Assembly: GCF_009931435.1 (NCBI RefSeq)
Contig: NZ_CP043414.1
Source: Escherichia coli
Lineage (GTDB): Bacteria; Pseudomonadota; Gammaproteobacteria; Enterobacterales; Enterobacteriaceae
Strand: one strand, 5' to 3'
Length of the DNA stretch: 64,000 nt
A program made the position numbers and the translations under genes. The notes below the pieces were generated by a model. That model had not been told where the DNA came from and made no database searches. It saw only the letters and a list, made by a program, of their open reading frames with translations. The number at the start of each line of letters is the position of its first letter. The first letter of the stretch is position 1. Shown here in pieces: positions 3,617 to 39,139 of the stretch.

Positions 3617-4364
3617 CCGTGACTTTATGCGTTATAGCCGCCAAATCCTGCTCGACGATATCGCTCTTGACGGGCAGCAAAAACTGCTCGACAGCCAGGT
3701 GCTGATTATTGGTCTTGGCGGGCTGGGTACACCTGCTGCGCTATACCTGGCGGGGGCTGGTGTCGGGACGCTGGTACTGGCAGATGACGACGATGTGCAT
3801 TTAAGCAATCTGCAACGACAAATCCTCTTTACCACTGAAGATATCGATCGCCCGAAATCGCAGGTCAGCCAACAGCGACTGACACAGTTGAATCCCGACA
3901 TTCAACTGACAACATTACAACAACGGTTAACGGGTAAGGCGTTAAAAGATGCGGTAGCACGGGCCGATGTGGTGCTCGACTGTACCGACAACATGGCGAC
4001 TCGCCAGGAGATTAATGCCGCCTGCGTAGCACTTAACACACCGCTTATCACCGCCAGCGCGGTCGGATTTGGTGGTCAGTTGATGGTGCTGACACCGCCC
4101 TGGGAACAGGGGTGTTACCGCTGCCTGTGGCCGGATAACCAGGAGCCTAAACGCAACTGCCGCACGGCAGGCGTGGTTGGCCCGGTGGTCGGGGTCATGG
4201 GCACGTTACAGGCACTGGAAGCAATTAAGCTATTGAGTGGTATAGAGACCCCTGCGGGATATCTTCGACTGTTTGACGGTAAATTAAACCAATGGCGCAA
4301 CCTGGCGTTGCGCCGCGCCAGCGGTTGCCCGGTATGCGGAGGAAGCAATGCAGATCCTGTTTAA
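3609..4364 (+). CDS. thiF: Sulfur-carrier protein adenylyltransferase ThiF
   Basis: Internal ATG of track ORF 3516..4364 gives [27 protein letters not shown]... (251 aa) with the GLGGLG nucleotide-binding motif; start chosen by homology. Confidence 0.93.
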
Positions 4365-4548
4365 CGATCAACCGATGCAGTGCGTCGCCGGGCTAACTGT
4401 TCACGATCTGCTCGTGCAACTCAATCAACAACAAGCGGGCGCGGCGCTGGCGATTAACCAGCAAATCATCCCGCGAGAGCAGTGGGCGCAACATATCGTG
4501 CAGGATGGCGACCAGATCCTGCTTTTTCAGGTTATTGCAGGGGGTTGA
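4348..4548 (+). CDS. thiS: Sulfur carrier protein ThiS
   Basis: 66 aa [25 protein letters not shown]... ending in the characteristic C-terminal GG. Confidence 0.93.
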
Positions 4549-4549
4549 G

Positions 4550-5320
4550 ATGTTACGTATTGCGGACAAAACGTTTGATTCACATCTGTTTACCGGCACC
4601 GGGAAATTCGCCTCTTCACAATTGATGGTGGAGGCGATCCGCGCTTCCGGCAGCCAACTGGTGACGCTGGCGATGAAACGCGTCGACTTGCGCCAGCACA
4701 ACGATGCTATCCTCGAACCGCTTATCGCGGCGGGTGTGACCCTGCTGCCGAATACTTCCGGGGCGAAAACAGCGGAAGAAGCCATTTTCGCCGCCCATCT
4801 GGCACGTGAAGCATTAGGCACAAACTGGCTAAAATTAGAGATTCACCCTGACGCCCGCTGGCTGTTGCCCGATCCCATCGAAACCCTGAAAGCCGCCGAA
4901 ACACTGGTACAACAGGGATTTGTCGTGCTGCCTTACTGCGGTGCCGATCCGGTGTTGTGCAAACGTCTGGAAGAAGTCGGCTGTGCAGCGGTGATGCCGC
5001 TCGGCGCGCCGATTGGCTCGAATCAGGGACTGGAAACCCGCGCCATGCTGGAGATTATTATCCAGCAAGCCACGGTTCCGGTGGTCGTTGATGCTGGCAT
5101 TGGCGTTCCCAGCCATGCCGCGCAGGCGCTTGAAATGGGAGCCGATGCGGTGTTAGTGAATACGGCGATTGCCGTCGCGGACGATCCCGTCAACATGGCG
5201 AAGGCATTTCGTCTGGCGGTAGACGCCGGCCTGCTGGCACGTCAGTCCGGGCCGGGCAGTCGCAGTCATTTTGCTCATGCCACTAGCCCGCTGACCGGAT
5301 TTCTGGAGGCATCGGCATGA
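4550..5320 (+). CDS. thiG: Thiazole synthase ThiG
   Basis: [20 protein letters not shown]... (256 aa), using the internal ATG of track ORF 4505..5320 directly after the thiS stop. Confidence 0.94.
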
Positions 5321-6450
5321 AAACCTTCAGTGATCGCTGGCGACAACTGGACTGGGACGACATCCGCCTGCGAATCAACAGCAAAACGGCAGCTGACGTA
5401 GAGCGGGCGCTCAATGTTTCGCAACTCACTCGCGACGATATGATGGCATTGCTATCACCTGCCGCCGGTGAATACCTGGAACCACTGGCTCAACGGGCGC
5501 AGCGTCTGACCCGTCAGCGATTTGGCAACGTCGTCAGCTTCTACGTCCCGCTTTATCTTTCCAATCTTTGCGCTAACGACTGCACGTACTGCGGATTTTC
5601 CATGAGCAATCGCATCAAGCGTAAAACGCTGGATGAAGCGGATATCACCAGGGAAAGCGCCGCTATCCGGGAGATGGGCTTTGAACATCTATTGCTGGTC
5701 ACTGGTGAACATCAGGCGAAAGTGGGGATGGATTACTTTCGTCGTCATCTCCCTGTCCTGCGTGAACAGTTCTCTTCACTACAGATGGAAGTACAGCCAC
5801 TGGCGGAAGCGGAATACGCCGAGTTAAAGCAACTTGGTCTGGATGGGGTGATGGTTTATCAGGAGACATATCACGAGGCGACATACGCCCACCATCATCT
5901 GAAAGGGAAAAAACAGGACTTCTTCTGGCGGCTGGAAACGCCGGATCGGCTGGGCCGTGCGGGGATAGATAAGATAGGCCTCGGCGCGCTAATCGGCCTT
6001 TCCGACAGCTGGCGCGTTGACTGCTATATGGTTGCCGAACATTTGCTATGGCTGCAACAACATTACTGGCAAAGCCGTTACTCTGTCTCCTTCCCGCGCC
6101 TGCGCCCGTGTACTGGCGGGATTGAGCCAGCGTCGATTATGGATGAACGCCAGTTAGTGCAAACTATCTGCGCCTTCCGCCTACTTGCGCCGGAGATTGA
6201 ACTGTCACTCTCCACGCGGGAATCACCGTGGTTTCGCGATCGCGTTATTCCGCTGGCGATCAATAACGTCAGCGCCTTCTCGAAAACGCAACCTGGTGGC
6301 TATGCCGACAATCATCCGGAGCTGGAGCAATTCTCACCGCACGACGATCGCAGGCCGGAAGCCGTTGCTGCTGCATTAACTGCTCAGGGTTTGCAGCCGG
6401 TATGGAAAGACTGGGACAGCTATCTGGGACGTGCCTCGCAAAGGACATGA
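5317..6450 (+). CDS. thiH: 2-iminoacetate synthase ThiH (radical SAM)
   Basis: 377 aa ORF with the radical-SAM CxxxCxxC motif ([10 protein letters not shown]); ATGA overlap with thiG. Confidence 0.95.
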
Positions 6451-35304: not shown

Positions 35305-36705
35305 ATGCCACATTCCTACGATTACGATGCCATAGTAATAGGTTCCGGCCCCGGCGGCGAAGGCGCTGCAATGGGCCTGGTTAAGCAAGGTGCGCGCGTC
35401 GCAGTTATCGAGCGTTATCAAAATGTTGGCGGCGGTTGCACCCACTGGGGCACCATCCCGTCGAAAGCTCTCCGTCACGCCGTCAGCCGCATTATAGAAT
35501 TTAATCAAAACCCACTTTACAGCGACCATTCCCGACTGCTCCGCTCTTCTTTTGCCGATATCCTTAACCATGCCGATAACGTGATTAATCAACAAACACG
35601 TATGCGTCAGGGATTTTACGAACGTAATCACTGTGAAATATTGCAGGGGAACGCTCGCTTTGTTGACGAGCATACGTTGGCGCTGGATTGCCCGGACGGC
35701 AGCGTCGAAACACTAACCGCTGAAAAATTTGTTATTGCCTGTGGTTCTCGCCCTTATCATCCAACAGATGTTGATTTCACCCATCCACGCATTTACGACA
35801 GCGACTCAATTCTTAGCATGCACCACGAACCGCGCCATGTACTTATCTATGGTGCTGGAGTGATCGGCTGTGAATATGCGTCGATCTTCCGCGGTATGGA
35901 TGTAAAAGTGGATCTGATCAACACCCGCGATCGTCTGCTGGCGTTTCTCGATCAGGAGATGTCAGATTCTCTCTCCTATCACTTCTGGAACAGTGGCGTA
36001 GTGATTCGTCACAACGAAGAGTACGAAAAGATCGAAGGCTGTGACGACGGTGTGATTATGCATCTGAAGTCGGGCAAAAAGCTGAAAGCCGACTGTCTTC
36101 TCTATGCCAACGGTCGTACCGGTAATACCGATTCGCTGGCGTTACAGAACATTGGGCTGGAAACTGACAGTCGTGGACAGCTGAAGGTCAACAGCATGTA
36201 TCAGACCGCACAGCCACACGTTTACGCGGTGGGCGACGTGATTGGTTATCCGAGCCTGGCGTCGGCGGCCTATGACCAGGGGCGCATTGCCGCGCAGGCG
36301 CTGGTGAAAGGCGAAGCCACCGCACATCTGATTGAAGATATCCCTACCGGTATTTACACCATCCCGGAAATCAGCTCTGTGGGCAAAACCGAACAGCAGC
36401 TGACCGCGATGAAAGTGCCATATGAAGTGGGCCGCGCCCAGTTCAAACATCTGGCACGCGCACAAATCGTCGGCATGAACGTGGGCACGCTGAAAATTTT
36501 GTTCCATCGGGAAACAAAAGAGATTCTGGGCATTCACTGCTTTGGCGAGCGCGCTGCCGAAATTATTCATATCGGTCAGGCGATTATGGAACAGAAAGGT
36601 GGCGGCAACACTATTGAGTACTTCGTCAACACCACCTTTAACTACCCGACGATGGCGGAAGCCTATCGGGTAGCCGCGTTAAACGGTTTAAACCGCCTGT
36701 TTTAA
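35305..36705 (+). CDS. sthA: Soluble pyridine nucleotide transhydrogenase SthA (UdhA)
   Basis: 466 aa [59 protein letters not shown]... Confidence 0.97.
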
Positions 36706-37605
36706 CACTTTATCGAAATGGCCATCCATTCTTGCGCGGATGGCCTCTGCCAGCTGCTCATAGCGGCTGCGCAGCGGTGAGCCCGGACGATAAACCAGGC
36801 CAATAGTGCGGCGTGGTTCCGGCTTAATACACGGCAAATAAACAACCCCATCGCGTTTGCGCTCCGGCGGCACAGCCAGTGCAGGCAGTAAAGTGATCCC
36901 GCTACCTGCCGCCACCATGTTGCGCAGAGTTTCCAGGCTGGTCGCGCGGAAGTGTGTATCTTCATCCGCCCCGGCTTCAAAGCAGAAACCCATTGCCTGA
37001 TCGCGCAAACAGTGACCATCTTCCAGCATCAGCAGTTTTTCCCCTGCCAGATCGGCCATCGGTACGCATTCGCGGTTCGCCCACGGGTGATCTTCATAGA
37101 TAGCCAGCAACATTGGCTCATCAAACAACGGCACTTCAATGAATGCTTCGCTCTCTTTCACCAGCGCGAGGATCACGCAATCGAGTTTGCCGCTGTCCAG
37201 TTGCGCCAGTAACTGGTGGGTCTGTGCTTCATGCAGATACATTTCCAGCTTTGGAAAGGTCTGGTGCAGCATCGGGATAATATGCGGTAACAGGTAAGGC
37301 CCAACCGTTGGAATCAAACCAATATGCAGCGGTCCGGACATCGTCTCACCCTGCTGGCTTGCCATCTCTTTAAGGACTTTCACCTCACGCAGCACGGTAC
37401 GCGCCTGATCCACCAGCAGCATTCCCGCCTGGGTGAACAACACTTTACGGCTGGTCCGCTCCAGCAACATCACGCCCAGCTCATCTTCCAGCTTACGAAT
37501 TTGCCCGCTAAGCGTCGGCTGGCTAACGTGGCAGGAGTCTGCCGCACGCCGAAAATGGCGGTGTTCAGCCAATGCCACCAGGTACTCAAGATCACGAATA
37601 TTCAT
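36688..37605 (-). CDS. oxyR: LysR-family hydrogen peroxide-responsive regulator OxyR
   Basis: Track ORF 36688..37635; homologous start [54 protein letters not shown] (305 aa); 3' end overlaps sthA convergently by 18 bp. Confidence 0.97.
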
Positions 37606-37609
37606 TATC

Positions 37610-37700
37610 CATCCTCCATCGCCACGATAGTTCATGGCGATAGGTAGAATAGCAATGAACGATTATCCCTATCAAGCATTCTGACTGATAATTGCTCACA
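37610..37700. promoter_or_regulatory. oxyR-oxyS divergent promoter region with OxyR binding site
   Basis: GATAGGTAGAATAGCAATGAACGATTATCCCTATCAAGCATT (ATAG-n7-CTAT type repeats) followed by a TGATAAT -10 box just upstream of the oxyS start. Confidence 0.7.
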
Positions 37701-37809
37701 GAAACGGAGCGGCACCTCTTTAACCCTTGAAGTCACTGCCCGTTTCGAGAGTTTCTCAACTCGAATAACTAAAGCCAACGTGAACTTTTGCGGATCTCCA
37801 GGATCCGCT
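37701..37809 (+). ncRNA. oxyS: OxyS small regulatory RNA
   Basis: GAAACGGAGCGGCACCTCTTTAACCCTTGAAGTCACTGCCCGTTTCGAGAGTTTCTCAACTCGAATAACTAAAGCCAACGTGAACTTTTGCGGATCTCCAGGATCCGC followed by a T-run; matches oxyS; divergent from oxyR. Confidence 0.9.
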
Positions 37810-37855: not shown

Positions 37856-39139
37856 TTACTCAATCCGATCTTTGACAATAAAGAAGTAACACAGCGCCCC
37901 GGTGAATGTCACACAGGCCGCGATAACCAGCGCCAGATTAAACGAGTGCGTGGTATCCACTACCCAACCGGTTACGATCGGAGCAAAGGAAGCAAAAACA
38001 AAACTGCCAAAGTTTTGAATCCCGGCGATGGAAGCCACTTTTGTTTCTGACACCATCACCTGCACCAGTCCCCATGCAGATGTTCCCGCGAAATGCACGC
38101 AGAACAGCGCCATTGAGATAAACGCTACAGCCTGGGCTGGCGAGGAGGATTGCACGACCAGCAACGTGCCTAATGCCGACATCATCAAACCGCAGACAAT
38201 AGCCGTTTTACGCGTCTTCGCCAGGTCGTAGCCTTTTTTCGCCAGCCGATCGACAACAATACCGTTAACCCACATCCCGACCGCCGCCGCGAGGAAAGGA
38301 ATCGCCGCCACCCAACCGGTTTTCGCCAGACTGAAGCCTTGCTCGGCTTGTAAATAACCGGGTAACCACGCGATGTAGAGCCAACCGGTATAATTGACGC
38401 CAGAGAAACCTAAAATCATCCCCCAGGTTGTCCGATGCTTAAACAGCGCCAGCCACTCGCTAAATTGTAATTGTGGACGCGGTTTAACCGGCGCGGAGAG
38501 ATAGGTCCGTTCTTCGTCGGTCAGGACAAACTGCGCCCGGTTGCGATACCACGCGTACCAACAGATCCCAACCAGAATCCCCGCCACGCCGATGATGACG
38601 AACATTGCCCGCCAGCCCCATGCCAGCTGCATCAATACAAGAGCAGGAGGCGCAATAGCCTGACCGATAACGGTAGATGAGTTAAAAATCCCCAGCGCCG
38701 TGCCGCGTTCTTTTTGCGCATACCAGTCGGTGATCGACTTTACTCCCGCAGGCATAAATGGCGCTTCGCCAATACCCAGACCGATACGCATTAAAATAAA
38801 GTGGCTAAAAGAATTAACCATTCCTGTTAATGCCTGCATTAATGACCAGAATATTAAGCCTGCGCCTAAAACTATTCGTGGGCCAAAGCGGTCTAGCAAA
38901 ATACCGGAAGGGAGTTGTGAAAAACCATAAGACAGAGAAAATGCAGAAAGCAAAACGCCAAATTCTGTCGCCGATAATCCTAACTCGCCACGAATCGCTT
39001 CGCCTGCCACGCTCAATGACGAACGGTCGAGGAAATTAACGATCCCCGCCATAAATAATAAAACCAGCGTTACTGTCTGAATACGACGAATCCGTTGCGG
39101 TTTATTACCCGCAACACTGGTTGACACATCAACGTCCAT
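37856..39139 (-). CDS. MFS transporter, anion:cation symporter (ACS) family; sugar-acid (DgoT/ExuT/GudP-like) permease
   Basis: 427 aa, 12 predicted hydrophobic segments; N-terminal LLFMAGIVNFLDRSSLSVAG and GLGIGEAPFMPA motifs typical of ACS-family hexuronate/aldonate transporters. Confidence 0.8.
   Translation of the reverse strand: MDVDVSTSVAGNKPQRIRRIQTVTLVLLFMAGIVNFLDRSSLSVAGEAIRGELGLSATEFGVLLSAFSLSYGFSQLPSGILLDRFGPRIVLGAGLIFWSLMQALTGMVNSFSHFILMRIGLGIGEAPFMPAGVKSITDWYAQKERGTALGIFNSSTVIGQAIAPPALVLMQLAWGWRAMFVIIGVAGILVGICWYAWYRNRAQFVLTDEERTYLSAPVKPRPQLQFSEWLALFKHRTTWGMILGFSGVNYTGWLYIAWLPGYLQAEQGFSLAKTGWVAAIPFLAAAVGMWVNGIVVDRLAKKGYDLAKTRKTAIVCGLMMSALGTLLVVQSSSPAQAVAFISMALFCVHFAGTSAWGLVQVMVSETKVASIAGIQNFGSFVFASFAPIVTGWVVDTTHSFNLALVIAACVTFTGALCYFFIVKDRIE

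What the first reader, a model, noticed from the sequence alone, without database searches (positions are those of the whole stretch)
36688..36705. sthA and oxyR coding regions overlap convergently at their 3' ends
The sthA stop lies 18 bp inside the oxyR 3' end on the opposite strand, so neither gene has its own terminator hairpin. Convergent transcription could couple expression of the two redox-related genes.
Basis: seen in the sequence. Interest (0 to 1): 0.2.

Follow-up and report, generated by a model that had tools for sequence, protein, structure and literature searches.

The report
sthA–oxyR tail-to-tail gene overlap
The ends of the E. coli genes sthA and oxyR do overlap by 18 bases on opposite strands, but this is already annotated and published, and each gene still has its own conserved RNA hairpin hidden inside the other gene's coding sequence.

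Summary
sthA (35305-36705, +) and oxyR (36688-37605, -) share 18 bp, counting both stop codons. The same overlap is annotated in E. coli K-12 and in RefSeq. It is present in 77 of 79 Enterobacteriaceae species loci and in five genera from three further Enterobacterales families. The literature already mentions it (JBC 2022) and lists the pair as a convergent "excludon" (NAR 2025).

No canonical hairpin-plus-U-run terminator exists at the junction. However, each gene has a conserved stem-loop just past its stop codon, inside the partner's coding sequence.
- **sthA:** the hairpin at 36720-36745 (+) shows compensatory base changes in at least four clades. Published Term-seq places the dominant sthA 3' end 5 nt after it, at window 36750.
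- **oxyR:** two hairpins on the minus strand (36675-36640 and 36639-36591) show frozen synonymous sites and variation that keeps pairing only on that strand. A published Rho-dependent termination region starts 5-9 nt beyond them.

The most likely mechanism is Rho-dependent termination further downstream, followed by trimming back to these protective hairpins. That leaves the two mRNAs complementary over about 165 nt. Regulatory coupling between the genes is plausible but untested. The finding is ordinary and already known, so interest is low.

The parts
35305..36705 (+). sthA (udhA) coding sequence, 466 aa, soluble pyridine nucleotide transhydrogenase
   Evidence: ORF. RefSeq and K-12 annotation. 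100% protein identity to E. coli SthA. The C-terminus is conserved to the last residue even in the distant PDB homologue 9n4y.
36688..37605 (-). oxyR coding sequence, 305 aa, LysR-type peroxide sensor. The mechanical ORF list starts earlier, at 37635.
   Evidence: PDB 1i69/1i6a cover residues 87-305. Distant OxyR structures align only to about residue 290, so residues 292-305 form a lineage-specific tail.
36688..36705 (.). 18-bp tail-to-tail overlap of the two coding sequences (TTAAACCGCCTGTTTTAA). Each stop codon lies opposite a Leu TTA codon of the partner.
   Evidence: Synonymous entropy is depressed, as expected for dual coding (z -3.5 in sthA, z -4.1 in oxyR).
36720..36745 (+). Stem-loop I4 (GGCCATCC, 10-nt loop, GGATGGCC), -15.1 kcal/mol, in the sthA 3' UTR and inside oxyR codons 287-296
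   Evidence: 97-99% of cells paired across 66-75 species, with double-sided compensatory changes at 3 pairs. The A-U to G-C switch, which is OxyR I289V plus D294 GAT to GAC, occurs in at least 4 clades. The stem codons GCC288 (70/70), GGC295 (70/71) and ATC289 (62/63) are nearly frozen while the loop codons vary. Stem synonymous entropy z -4.3.
36750..36750 (+). Published dominant 3' end of sthA mRNA (K-12 4159345, minus strand), 5 nt after the I4 stem
   Evidence: Adams et al. 2021 eLife, Supplementary file 1, classed 'primary' for sthA and 'antisense' to oxyR, in two of the three growth-condition tabs. The printed flanking sequence matches the window.
36640..36675 (-). Stem-loop A (core CTACCCGA/TCGGGTAG, 36642-36673), -21.2 kcal/mol on the minus strand. 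It starts 13 nt after the oxyR stop and lies inside sthA codons 446-457.
   Evidence: Paired in 96.8% of cells on the minus strand (10 pairs counted, window 36641-36674). Over all 11 pairs, 91.4% of cells pair on the minus strand and 69.1% on the plus strand. The rare Arg codon CGG455 is kept in 77/78 species. There are no double-sided compensatory changes.
36591..36639 (-). Stem-loop B (AAAGGUGGUG...CGCCACCUUU, with an inner stem), -15.6 kcal/mol on the minus strand, inside sthA codons 430-445
   Evidence: 99.5-99.6% paired on the minus strand against 89.9% on the plus strand. ACC443 and ACC444 are invariant in 78/78 species. All common variants are G-C or A-U to G.U changes on the minus strand only. 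Analogous hairpins using the same N-T-T-F codons fold in the six outgroup loci where the region antisense to sthA was folded (five genera with the 18-bp overlap plus Pectobacterium).
36586..36586 (-). Published Rho termination region on the oxyR-sense strand (K-12 4159509 +, Rho score 5.1, p 3e-16), 5-9 nt past the base of stem-loop B
   Evidence: Adams et al. 2021, Supplementary file 2, DirectRNA-seq with and without bicyclomycin. The method is described.
37080..37080 (+). Published Rho termination region on the sthA-sense strand, antisense to oxyR (K-12 4159015 -, Rho score 5.8, p 6e-31)
   Evidence: The C/G ratio rises to 2.0 at 36975-37050, just upstream.

Best explanation
This is a real and ancient 18-bp tail-to-tail overlap of two ordinary genes. 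It exists because the lineage-specific C-terminal tail of OxyR (residues about 292-305) runs into the invariant C-terminus of SthA. Dual coding then locks it in place. Neither mRNA ends at a canonical intrinsic terminator. Instead, each has conserved stem-loops just beyond its stop codon, written into the partner's coding sequence through frozen synonymous sites and, in one case, through an amino-acid change. Shown here and in published data: the sthA stem-loop I4 (36720-36745) is maintained by compensatory evolution, and the steady-state sthA 3' end lies 5 nt after it. Inferred: RNA polymerase reads through the hairpins, Rho stops it in the untranslated antisense region downstream (near 37080 for sthA and from about 36586 for oxyR), and 3'-5' exonucleases trim back to the hairpins, which protect the mRNAs. 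The mature transcripts are then complementary over about 165 nt (36586-36750). That is an excludon-type layout. Any regulatory cross-talk between the genes is a possible consequence, not a demonstrated function.
For: Overlap and annotation. Conservation: 77/79 Enterobacteriaceae loci with 18 bp. Erwinia, Hafnia, Serratia, Edwardsiella and Chimaeribacter also have 18 bp. 5425/5426 E. coli genomes carry the junction. The SthA end is invariant even in a distant solved homologue, while the OxyR tail lies beyond the conserved domain. I4: 97.3-98.8% paired, 11 cells with double-sided changes against 1.7 expected (0 of 500 shuffles reach this), and slid controls give 32-50% paired. There are at least 4 independent A-U to G-C switches, and the G.U intermediates pair only on the plus strand. 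Amino-acid-matched synonymous constraint: I4 stem z -4.3, stems A+B z -5.3, loops z -3.5. The four codons between stem A and the overlap give z -0.3, and control regions give z +1.3 and +2.0. Minus-strand-specific pairing of A and B. Published Term-seq 3' end at window 36750 and bicyclomycin-sensitive regions at 36586 (-) and 37080 (+). Dar and Sorek 2018 describe this class: Rho-dependent transcripts end just after stable stem-loops that lack a U-run. ExcludonFinder lists oxyR-sthA and reports that 146 of 165 E. coli convergent excludons have overlapping predicted terminators, which its authors read as terminators embedded in the neighbouring gene's 3' UTR.
Against: No curated Term-seq 3' end for oxyR was found in the one accessible table, so the role of hairpins A and B rests on comparative evidence and on a Rho-region coordinate of limited resolution. 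A and B show no double-sided covariation, only one-sided wobble-compatible variation. Nearby loop codons are also constrained, so part of the signal could come from codon bias or from a larger structure. Hairpins A and I4 are not conserved in sequence outside Enterobacteriaceae, where other hairpins occupy similar positions. The origin of the bicyclomycin-sensitive transcripts (read-through versus internal antisense promoters) is not established. The exonuclease-trimming step is inferred from the general model and was not tested at this locus.
Confidence: 0.72

Rival explanations
1. The overlap leaves both genes without any 3' hairpin, so transcripts end by polymerase collision or run far into the partner gene, and this couples their expression.
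For: No hairpin-plus-T-run terminator is found at the junction. Transcripts overlap according to RNA-seq. Bicyclomycin-sensitive read-through occurs on both strands.
Against: Conserved, covarying stem-loop I4 has a mapped dominant sthA 3' end 5 nt after it. Conserved minus-strand stem-loops follow the oxyR stop.
Confidence: 0.08
2. The stem-loops are weak Rho-independent terminators, perhaps aided by NusA/NusG or by head-on polymerase traffic. On this view the 3' ends are true termination points rather than trimmed ends.
For: The 3' end lies 5 nt after a GC-rich 8-bp stem. The hairpin is conserved.
Against: The tails are UCUGCCAG after I4, UUAAAGGU after stem A's 8-bp core and CUGUUCCA after stem B's 10-bp stem. 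None has a U-run, and the I4 loop is 10 nt. The consensus scan does not call them. Bicyclomycin-sensitive regions lie downstream on both strands. Dar and Sorek describe exactly such U-less stem-loops as ends of Rho-dependent transcripts.
Confidence: 0.15
3. Hairpins A and B inside sthA are by-products of the protein sequence (Gly-Gly-Gly and Thr-Thr codons are naturally complementary) plus codon bias. They have no role in oxyR mRNA, and only I4 is functional.
For: A and B have no double-sided compensatory changes. Asn and Tyr codons in the loops are as invariant as those in the stems. No curated oxyR Term-seq 3' end was found.
Against: The amino-acid-matched test still gives z -5.3 for the stems while neighbouring controls are unconstrained. 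The rare codon CGG455 is kept in 77/78 species, and ACC443/444 in 78/78, while other Thr codons vary. All eight commonly variable stem sites keep pairing on the minus strand only. The Rho-region coordinate falls 5-9 nt after stem B.
Confidence: 0.25
4. The 3' end at 36750 is produced by RNase III cutting the sthA-oxyR sense-antisense duplex, not by a protective hairpin.
For: The two mRNAs must be complementary here. Excludon duplexes are known RNase III substrates (abstract).
Against: It does not explain why an intramolecular stem with plus-strand-specific compensatory and wobble changes is conserved exactly 5 nt upstream of the end.
Confidence: 0.07

Closest known systems
Annotated oxyR-sthA (udhA) overlap of E. 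coli K-12, as noted by Partipilo et al. 2022 (J Biol Chem, PMC9460512)
   Same: It is the same locus with the same 18 bp. The paper counts 12 nt by leaving out the two stop codons. It makes the same suggestion that the arrangement might imply transcriptional cross-regulation.
   Different: Nothing differs in the overlap itself. The window is another E. coli strain (about 99% identity) with a different island beyond oxyS.
Convergent excludons (ExcludonFinder map of E. coli, Sanmartin et al. 2025, PMC12288877)
   Same: oxyR-sthA is one of the 165 listed convergent pairs with overlapping transcripts. Most such pairs are reported to have overlapping predicted terminators, read by the authors as terminators embedded in the neighbour's transcription unit.
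   Different: Excludons are usually defined by overlapping UTRs. Here the coding sequences also overlap, and the 3' structures lie inside coding sequence. Mutually exclusive expression has not been shown for this pair.
Protective 3' stem-loops of Rho-dependent transcripts (Dar and Sorek 2018, PMC6061677)
   Same: There is a stable stem-loop without a U-run, a steady-state 3' end immediately downstream, and Rho dependence further downstream.
   Different: The stem-loops here are encoded within an essential part of another gene's reading frame. They therefore evolve under triple constraint, and one compensatory change is an OxyR amino-acid substitution. Exonuclease protection is not tested at this locus.
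Bidirectional intrinsic terminators between convergent genes (Ju et al. 2019, Nature Microbiology; recalled from my own knowledge and cited within)
   Same: A convergent gene pair has 3' ends that overlap.
   Different: That class uses one shared hairpin flanked by A- and U-tracts. Here there are separate hairpins for each strand, 45-130 nt apart, with no A or U tracts.

Membership tests
Convergent (tail-to-tail) overlapping gene pair | Two genuine protein-coding genes on opposite strands | tested here: met
   Both are annotated in RefSeq and K-12. Both match solved structures. Both are conserved at 91-100% identity across 80 species.
Convergent (tail-to-tail) overlapping gene pair | The stop codon of each gene lies inside the other's reading frame | tested here: met
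   The sthA stop is at 36703-36705 and the oxyR stop at 36688-36690, an 18-bp overlap.
Convergent (tail-to-tail) overlapping gene pair | The overlap is conserved in relatives, so it is not an annotation or strain artefact | tested here: met
   77/79 Enterobacteriaceae loci, five genera in three other families and 5425/5426 E. coli genomes. Dickeya is an exception with a 116-bp repeat-filled spacer.
Convergent excludon | Transcripts of the two neighbouring genes overlap in antisense | tested here: met
The sthA 3' end at 36750 lies 62 nt inside oxyR, and the pair is listed by ExcludonFinder from RNA-seq coverage.
Convergent excludon | Reciprocal (mutually exclusive) expression of the two genes | not testable with these tools
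   No expression data for this pair were accessible. The ExcludonFinder supplement is not held.
Convergent excludon | RNase III processing of the duplex | not testable with these tools
   A literature search found no locus-specific data.
Intrinsic (Rho-independent) terminator | GC-rich stem-loop at the transcript end | tested here: met
   I4 -15.1 kcal/mol, stem A -21.2 kcal/mol, stem B -15.6 kcal/mol.
Intrinsic (Rho-independent) terminator | A run of U residues immediately after the stem | tested here: not met
   The tails are UCUGCCAG (after I4), UUAAAGGU (after stem A's 8-bp core) and CUGUUCCA (after stem B's 10-bp stem). The terminator scan finds nothing at the junction.
Protective 3' stem-loop of a Rho-dependent transcript | Stable stem-loop not followed by a U-rich tract | tested here: met
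Protective 3' stem-loop of a Rho-dependent transcript | Steady-state RNA 3' end immediately downstream of the stem | tested here: inconclusive
   Met for sthA: Term-seq end at 36750, 5 nt after I4. For oxyR no curated Term-seq end was found. Only a Rho-region coordinate lies 5-9 nt after stem B.
Protective 3' stem-loop of a Rho-dependent transcript | Increased read-through downstream when Rho is inhibited | tested here: met
   Published bicyclomycin data give Rho scores of 5.8 at window 37080 (+) and 5.1 at 36586 (-). The transcripts' promoters of origin are not established.
Protective 3' stem-loop of a Rho-dependent transcript | The stem protects against PNPase or RNase II | not testable with these tools
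   This needs exonuclease mutants or stem-disrupting mutations.
Bidirectional intrinsic terminator | A single hairpin with A-tract upstream and U-tract downstream, serving both strands | tested here: not met
   There are separate strand-specific hairpins and no A or U tracts.
Described RNA family (Rfam) | A match to a curated covariance model at the junction | tested here: not met
   No match with E of 1 or less in 36450-36900. Only OxyS is found, at 37701-37809.

The most novel reading that the evidence does not exclude
The reciprocal layout, in which each mRNA's conserved 3' stem-loop is written into the other gene's coding sequence and the mature transcripts are complementary over about 165 nt, could be a selected regulatory device. 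On this reading, sthA transcription (set by carbon and redox state) tunes the level of the peroxide sensor OxyR through collision or duplex-dependent decay, and the reverse also applies. The conservation of the overlap across several Enterobacterales families would then reflect that function rather than mere dual-coding lock-in.
Probability: 0.12. Interest if true: 0.45.

Novelty: already known. Interest (0 to 1): 0.15.

Why it matters
It matters little. The overlap is a textbook-type compact gene junction that is already annotated, already remarked on in the literature, and already included in a genome-wide excludon list. The useful correction is that overlapping coding ends do not imply missing 3' structures. 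Here the hairpins are embedded in the partner's reading frame, and one is kept intact by an OxyR amino-acid change paired with a synonymous change. This is a clean small example of RNA-structure constraint acting on the antisense gene's protein sequence. It also warns people who recode or delete either gene that changing the last 60 or so codons of oxyR, or the last 40-50 codons of sthA, can alter the other gene's mRNA end.

Tried and rejected
- **Terminator scan.** The consensus promoter/terminator scan found no terminator at the junction.
- **Rfam.** At permissive E-value it found nothing at the junction.
- **Hidden ORFs as the cause of synonymous constraint.** Rejected. The antisense ORFs 36142-36570 (-), 36354-36533 (-), 36702-37019 (-) and 36542-36673 (+) are interrupted at variable places in most of 78 species.
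- **Plus-strand reading of hairpins A and B.** Rejected in favour of the minus strand. For stem B, 89.9% of cells pair on the plus strand against 99.6% on the minus strand. For stem A (11 pairs) the figures are 69.1% against 91.4%. Stem B also folds more weakly on the plus strand (-11.5 kcal/mol, z -1.2, against -15.6 kcal/mol, z -2.7).
- **Shuffle control for A and B.** Uninformative, because all variation is one-sided.
- **Supplementary tables.** They are not held or had no hit for Dar and Sorek 2018, Choe et al. 2022, TERMITe 2025, SMRT-Cappable-seq 2018 and ExcludonFinder 2025. No second dataset for the 3' ends could therefore be consulted.
- **Literature searches.** Searches for udhA/oxyR convergent transcription, a 3' UTR or RNase III at this locus gave nothing further.
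- **Taxon sampling.** The single genome-collection scan returned only Enterobacteriaceae, because the best 80 of more than 587 relatives are kept. Wider sampling relied on eight exact-protein look-ups, one of which failed. Yersinia, Morganellaceae, Vibrionales and Pasteurellales were not reached.
- **The apparent 43-bp overlap in Pectobacterium.** Rejected as an artefact of a frameshifted oxyR in that assembly. The conserved frame gives 9 bp.

Full report
**1. Observation**

The sequence shows sthA as an ORF at 35305-36705 on the plus strand (466 aa, ending GLNRLF-TAA). oxyR lies on the minus strand and ends at 36688 (ending LKQAV-TAA). The mechanical ORF list starts oxyR at 37635. The conserved and annotated start is 37605 (305 aa, MNIRDLEY...).

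The shared stretch 36688-36705, TTAAACCGCCTGTTTTAA, is 18 bp. The two frames run codon against codon, and each TAA stop lies opposite a TTA leucine codon of the partner.

RefSeq annotation of a 99%-identical E. coli genome and of K-12 MG1655 gives the same layout. In K-12, oxyR is 4158490-4159407 (+) and sthA is 4159390-4160790 (-). The window-to-K-12 conversion is x = 36688 + 4159407 - K12.

**2. Conservation**

One scan of a species-representative genome collection with SthA returned 80 loci, all Enterobacteriaceae with 91-100% SthA identity.
- In 79 loci the oxyR end is present. 77 of these have the 18-bp overlap.
- Two (Enterobacter soli, Pluralibacter gergoviae) lost the oxyR stop and have 27 bp.
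- SthA ends NRLF or NRLW in all. OxyR ends K-Q/E/K-A/T-V/I.

Exact-protein look-ups gave seven loci outside Enterobacteriaceae, from four other families.
- Erwinia, Hafnia, Serratia, Edwardsiella and Chimaeribacter also have 18 bp.
- Dickeya has the genes separated by 116 bp of short tandem repeats, including a duplication of the sthA terminal 15 nt.
- Pectobacterium has 9 bp in the conserved frame. The called 43 bp comes from a frameshifted oxyR in that assembly.

Within E. coli, the 201-bp junction is present ungapped at 97-100% identity in 5425 of 5426 complete genomes.

The SthA C-terminus is conserved to its last residue in a distant solved homologue, 9n4y. Distant OxyR structures align only to about residue 290 of the 305. 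The overlap is therefore best read as the lineage-specific OxyR tail running into an immovable SthA end.

**3. What lies around the overlap**

No canonical terminator is called at the junction, and Rfam finds nothing there. Folding and an inverted-repeat search did show three perfect 8-bp inverted repeats flanking the overlap.
- I4: 36720-27 with 36738-45.
- I3, the core of stem A: 36642-49 with 36666-73.
- I2, the core of stem B: 36595-602 with 36632-39.

Synonymous-site entropy across 78 species is lowest in each gene near its 3' end, apart from the first oxyR codons. This is true well beyond the 18 bp. In an amino-acid-matched resampling test:

| Region | z |
|---|---|
| sthA codons forming stems A and B | -5.3 |
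| their loops | -3.5 |
| four codons between stem A and the overlap | -0.3 |
| overlap, sthA frame | -3.5 |
| control, sthA codons 380-409 | +2.0 |
| oxyR codons forming I4 | -4.3 |
| overlap, oxyR frame | -4.1 |
| control, oxyR codons 240-269 | +1.3 |

Striking cases are Arg455 CGG (a rare codon, 77/78), Thr443 and Thr444 ACC (78/78), OxyR Ala288 GCC (70/70), Gly295 GGC (70/71) and Ile289 ATC (62/63). The I4 loop codons 291-292 vary even in amino acid. Non-conserved antisense ORFs rule out a hidden gene as the cause.

**4. Hairpin I4 belongs to the sthA transcript**

On the plus-strand alignment, I4 is 97.3% paired. Three pairs carry double-sided changes, in 11 cells against 1.7 expected, and 0 of 500 shuffles reach that number. 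Slid controls fall to 32-50% paired.

The pair 36724/36741 is A-U in 63 species, G-C in 9 and G.U in 2. The G-C state corresponds to OxyR Ile289Val together with Asp294 GAT to GAC. It occurs in at least four separate clades, with a minimum of 7 state changes on a neighbour-joining tree. The single-change intermediates seen (G.U) pair only on the plus strand.

Published Term-seq provides direct support. Adams et al. 2021, eLife, Supplementary file 1 lists a dominant 3' end at K-12 4159345 (-), classed as primary for sthA and antisense to oxyR. It appears in two of three condition tabs, with a score comparable to that of OxyS. This is window 36750, 5 nt after the I4 stem. sthA therefore does have its own conserved 3' stem-loop, located inside oxyR codons 287-296.

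**5. Hairpins A and B fit the oxyR transcript, with weaker evidence**

- Stem B is paired in 99.6% of cells on the minus strand and 89.9% on the plus strand.
- Stem A (11 pairs) is paired in 91.4% against 69.1%.
- The tool count on the minus-strand alignment gives 98.2% paired, against 25-67% for slid controls.
- RNAalifold recovers an extended stem B.
- Every commonly variable stem site is a change to or from G.U that keeps pairing on the minus strand only. Sites where a transition would break minus-strand pairing are nearly invariant.
- Minus-strand energies are -21.2 kcal/mol (z -4.1) for A and -15.6 (z -2.7) for B. B on the plus strand gives -11.5 (z -1.2).
- A hairpin built on the same N-T-T-F codons folds in the six outgroup loci where the region antisense to sthA was folded, sometimes with a shifted partner.

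Three points count against this reading. There are no double-sided compensatory changes. The loop codons are also constrained. The curated Term-seq list holds no oxyR 3' end.

The same paper's bicyclomycin experiment reports a Rho termination region on the oxyR-sense strand at 4159509. Coverage there drops 5.8-fold in untreated cells and the drop is abolished by bicyclomycin (Rho score 5.1, p 3e-16). This is window 36586, 5-9 nt beyond stem B. A second region lies on the sthA-sense strand at 4159015 (window 37080, score 5.8). The authors note that such coordinates lie closer to processed 3' ends than to termination sites.

**6. Mechanism**

None of the stems is followed by a U-run. This matches the class described by Dar and Sorek 2018. 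In that class, Rho-dependent transcripts have precise steady-state ends just after stable, U-less stem-loops that protect against 3'-5' exonucleases, and rut sites lie just downstream.

The proposed sequence of events is as follows. Polymerase reads through the hairpins into the untranslated antisense of the partner gene. Rho terminates it there; the plus strand is C-rich and G-poor at 36975-37050. Exonucleases then trim back to I4 for sthA and to stem B or A for oxyR.

Shown: the overlap, its conservation, the I4 covariation, the sthA 3' end, and bicyclomycin sensitivity downstream. Inferred: the origin of the read-through transcripts, the trimming step, and the assignment of A and B to oxyR mRNA.

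The mature RNAs would be complementary over about 165 nt (36586-36750).

**7. Comparison with what is known**

The overlap is annotated in K-12. Partipilo et al. 2022 discuss it as a 12-nt overlap, excluding the stop codons, with the same speculation about cross-regulation. They note that it is absent from Azotobacter and Pseudomonas.

ExcludonFinder (2025) lists oxyR-sthA among 165 convergent excludons of E. coli. It reports that 146 of these have overlapping predicted terminators, which its authors read as terminators embedded in the neighbouring gene's 3' UTR.

The locus therefore fits three known kinds:
- a convergent overlapping gene pair (all defining features met);
- a convergent excludon (transcript overlap met; reciprocal expression and RNase III processing untested);
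- Rho-dependent ends with protective stem-loops (met for sthA; incomplete for oxyR).

It is not a canonical intrinsic terminator or a bidirectional terminator, because there are no U or A tracts and the hairpins are separate for each strand.

**8. Verdict**

The coupling idea is plausible but untested, and it is somewhat disfavoured as a stress response because oxyR transcription is autorepressed rather than peroxide-induced (my own knowledge).

The only new detail is comparative. The 3' stem-loops are embedded in the partner's reading frame, and one of them is maintained by an OxyR amino-acid change paired with a synonymous change. Interest is low.

Noticed in passing
window 37856-39139 (-) and beyond: An MFS transporter gene and a manD-like gene lie beyond oxyS in this strain and in the best-matching E. 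coli genomes. K-12 has argH directly after oxyS, so this is a strain-variable island next to the oxyR-oxyS locus.
   Followed up: partly
window 37701-37809 (+): OxyS small RNA (Rfam RF00035, 133 bits), divergent from oxyR. Its own canonical terminator at 37790-37808 is followed by a T-run.
   Followed up: yes
L083, L084, L085, L086, L088, L089 (about 4940-5830 in each): In Erwinia, Dickeya, Hafnia, Serratia, Edwardsiella and Chimaeribacter, the gene divergent from oxyR is a 243-244 aa AhpC-TSA plus glutaredoxin fusion. Rfam finds no OxyS in these loci. The oxyS position of Enterobacteriaceae is thus occupied by a peroxiredoxin-glutaredoxin gene elsewhere.
   Followed up: partly
L084 (Dickeya dianthicola) 3894-4024: sthA and oxyR are separated by a 116-bp spacer made of short tandem repeats. 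These include a 15-nt unit (2.1 copies) that duplicates the sthA terminal segment, and 18-nt units (3.3-3.6 copies). This looks like a natural un-overlapping of the pair by duplication.
   Followed up: partly
L087 (Pectobacterium zantedeschiae) 3865-4809: oxyR is frameshifted after about residue 250 in this assembly, which gives a spurious 314-aa call and an apparent 43-bp overlap. The conserved frame ends ...YMENLSK-TAA with a 9-bp overlap. Either this is a pseudogene or a sequencing error.
   Followed up: partly
L011 (Enterobacter soli) and L075 (Pluralibacter gergoviae), about 4375-4401: The oxyR stop codon is lost (TTA to CTG on the sthA strand, which is synonymous for SthA Leu462). OxyR gains three residues and the overlap grows to 27 bp.
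   Followed up: yes
L028, L032, L035 (Pseudocitrobacter), junction region: SthA ends in Trp instead of Phe (NRLW). The OxyR tail carries a one-residue insertion (…HFDEKALPKAV), and the I4 stem is partly disrupted in these species.
   Followed up: no
window 36749-36777 (+): A second predicted stem-loop (GCCAGCUGCUC AUA GCGGCUGCGC) begins at about the mapped sthA 3' end. It is conserved in sequence in many species and in Chimaeribacter. Its role was not examined.
   Followed up: no
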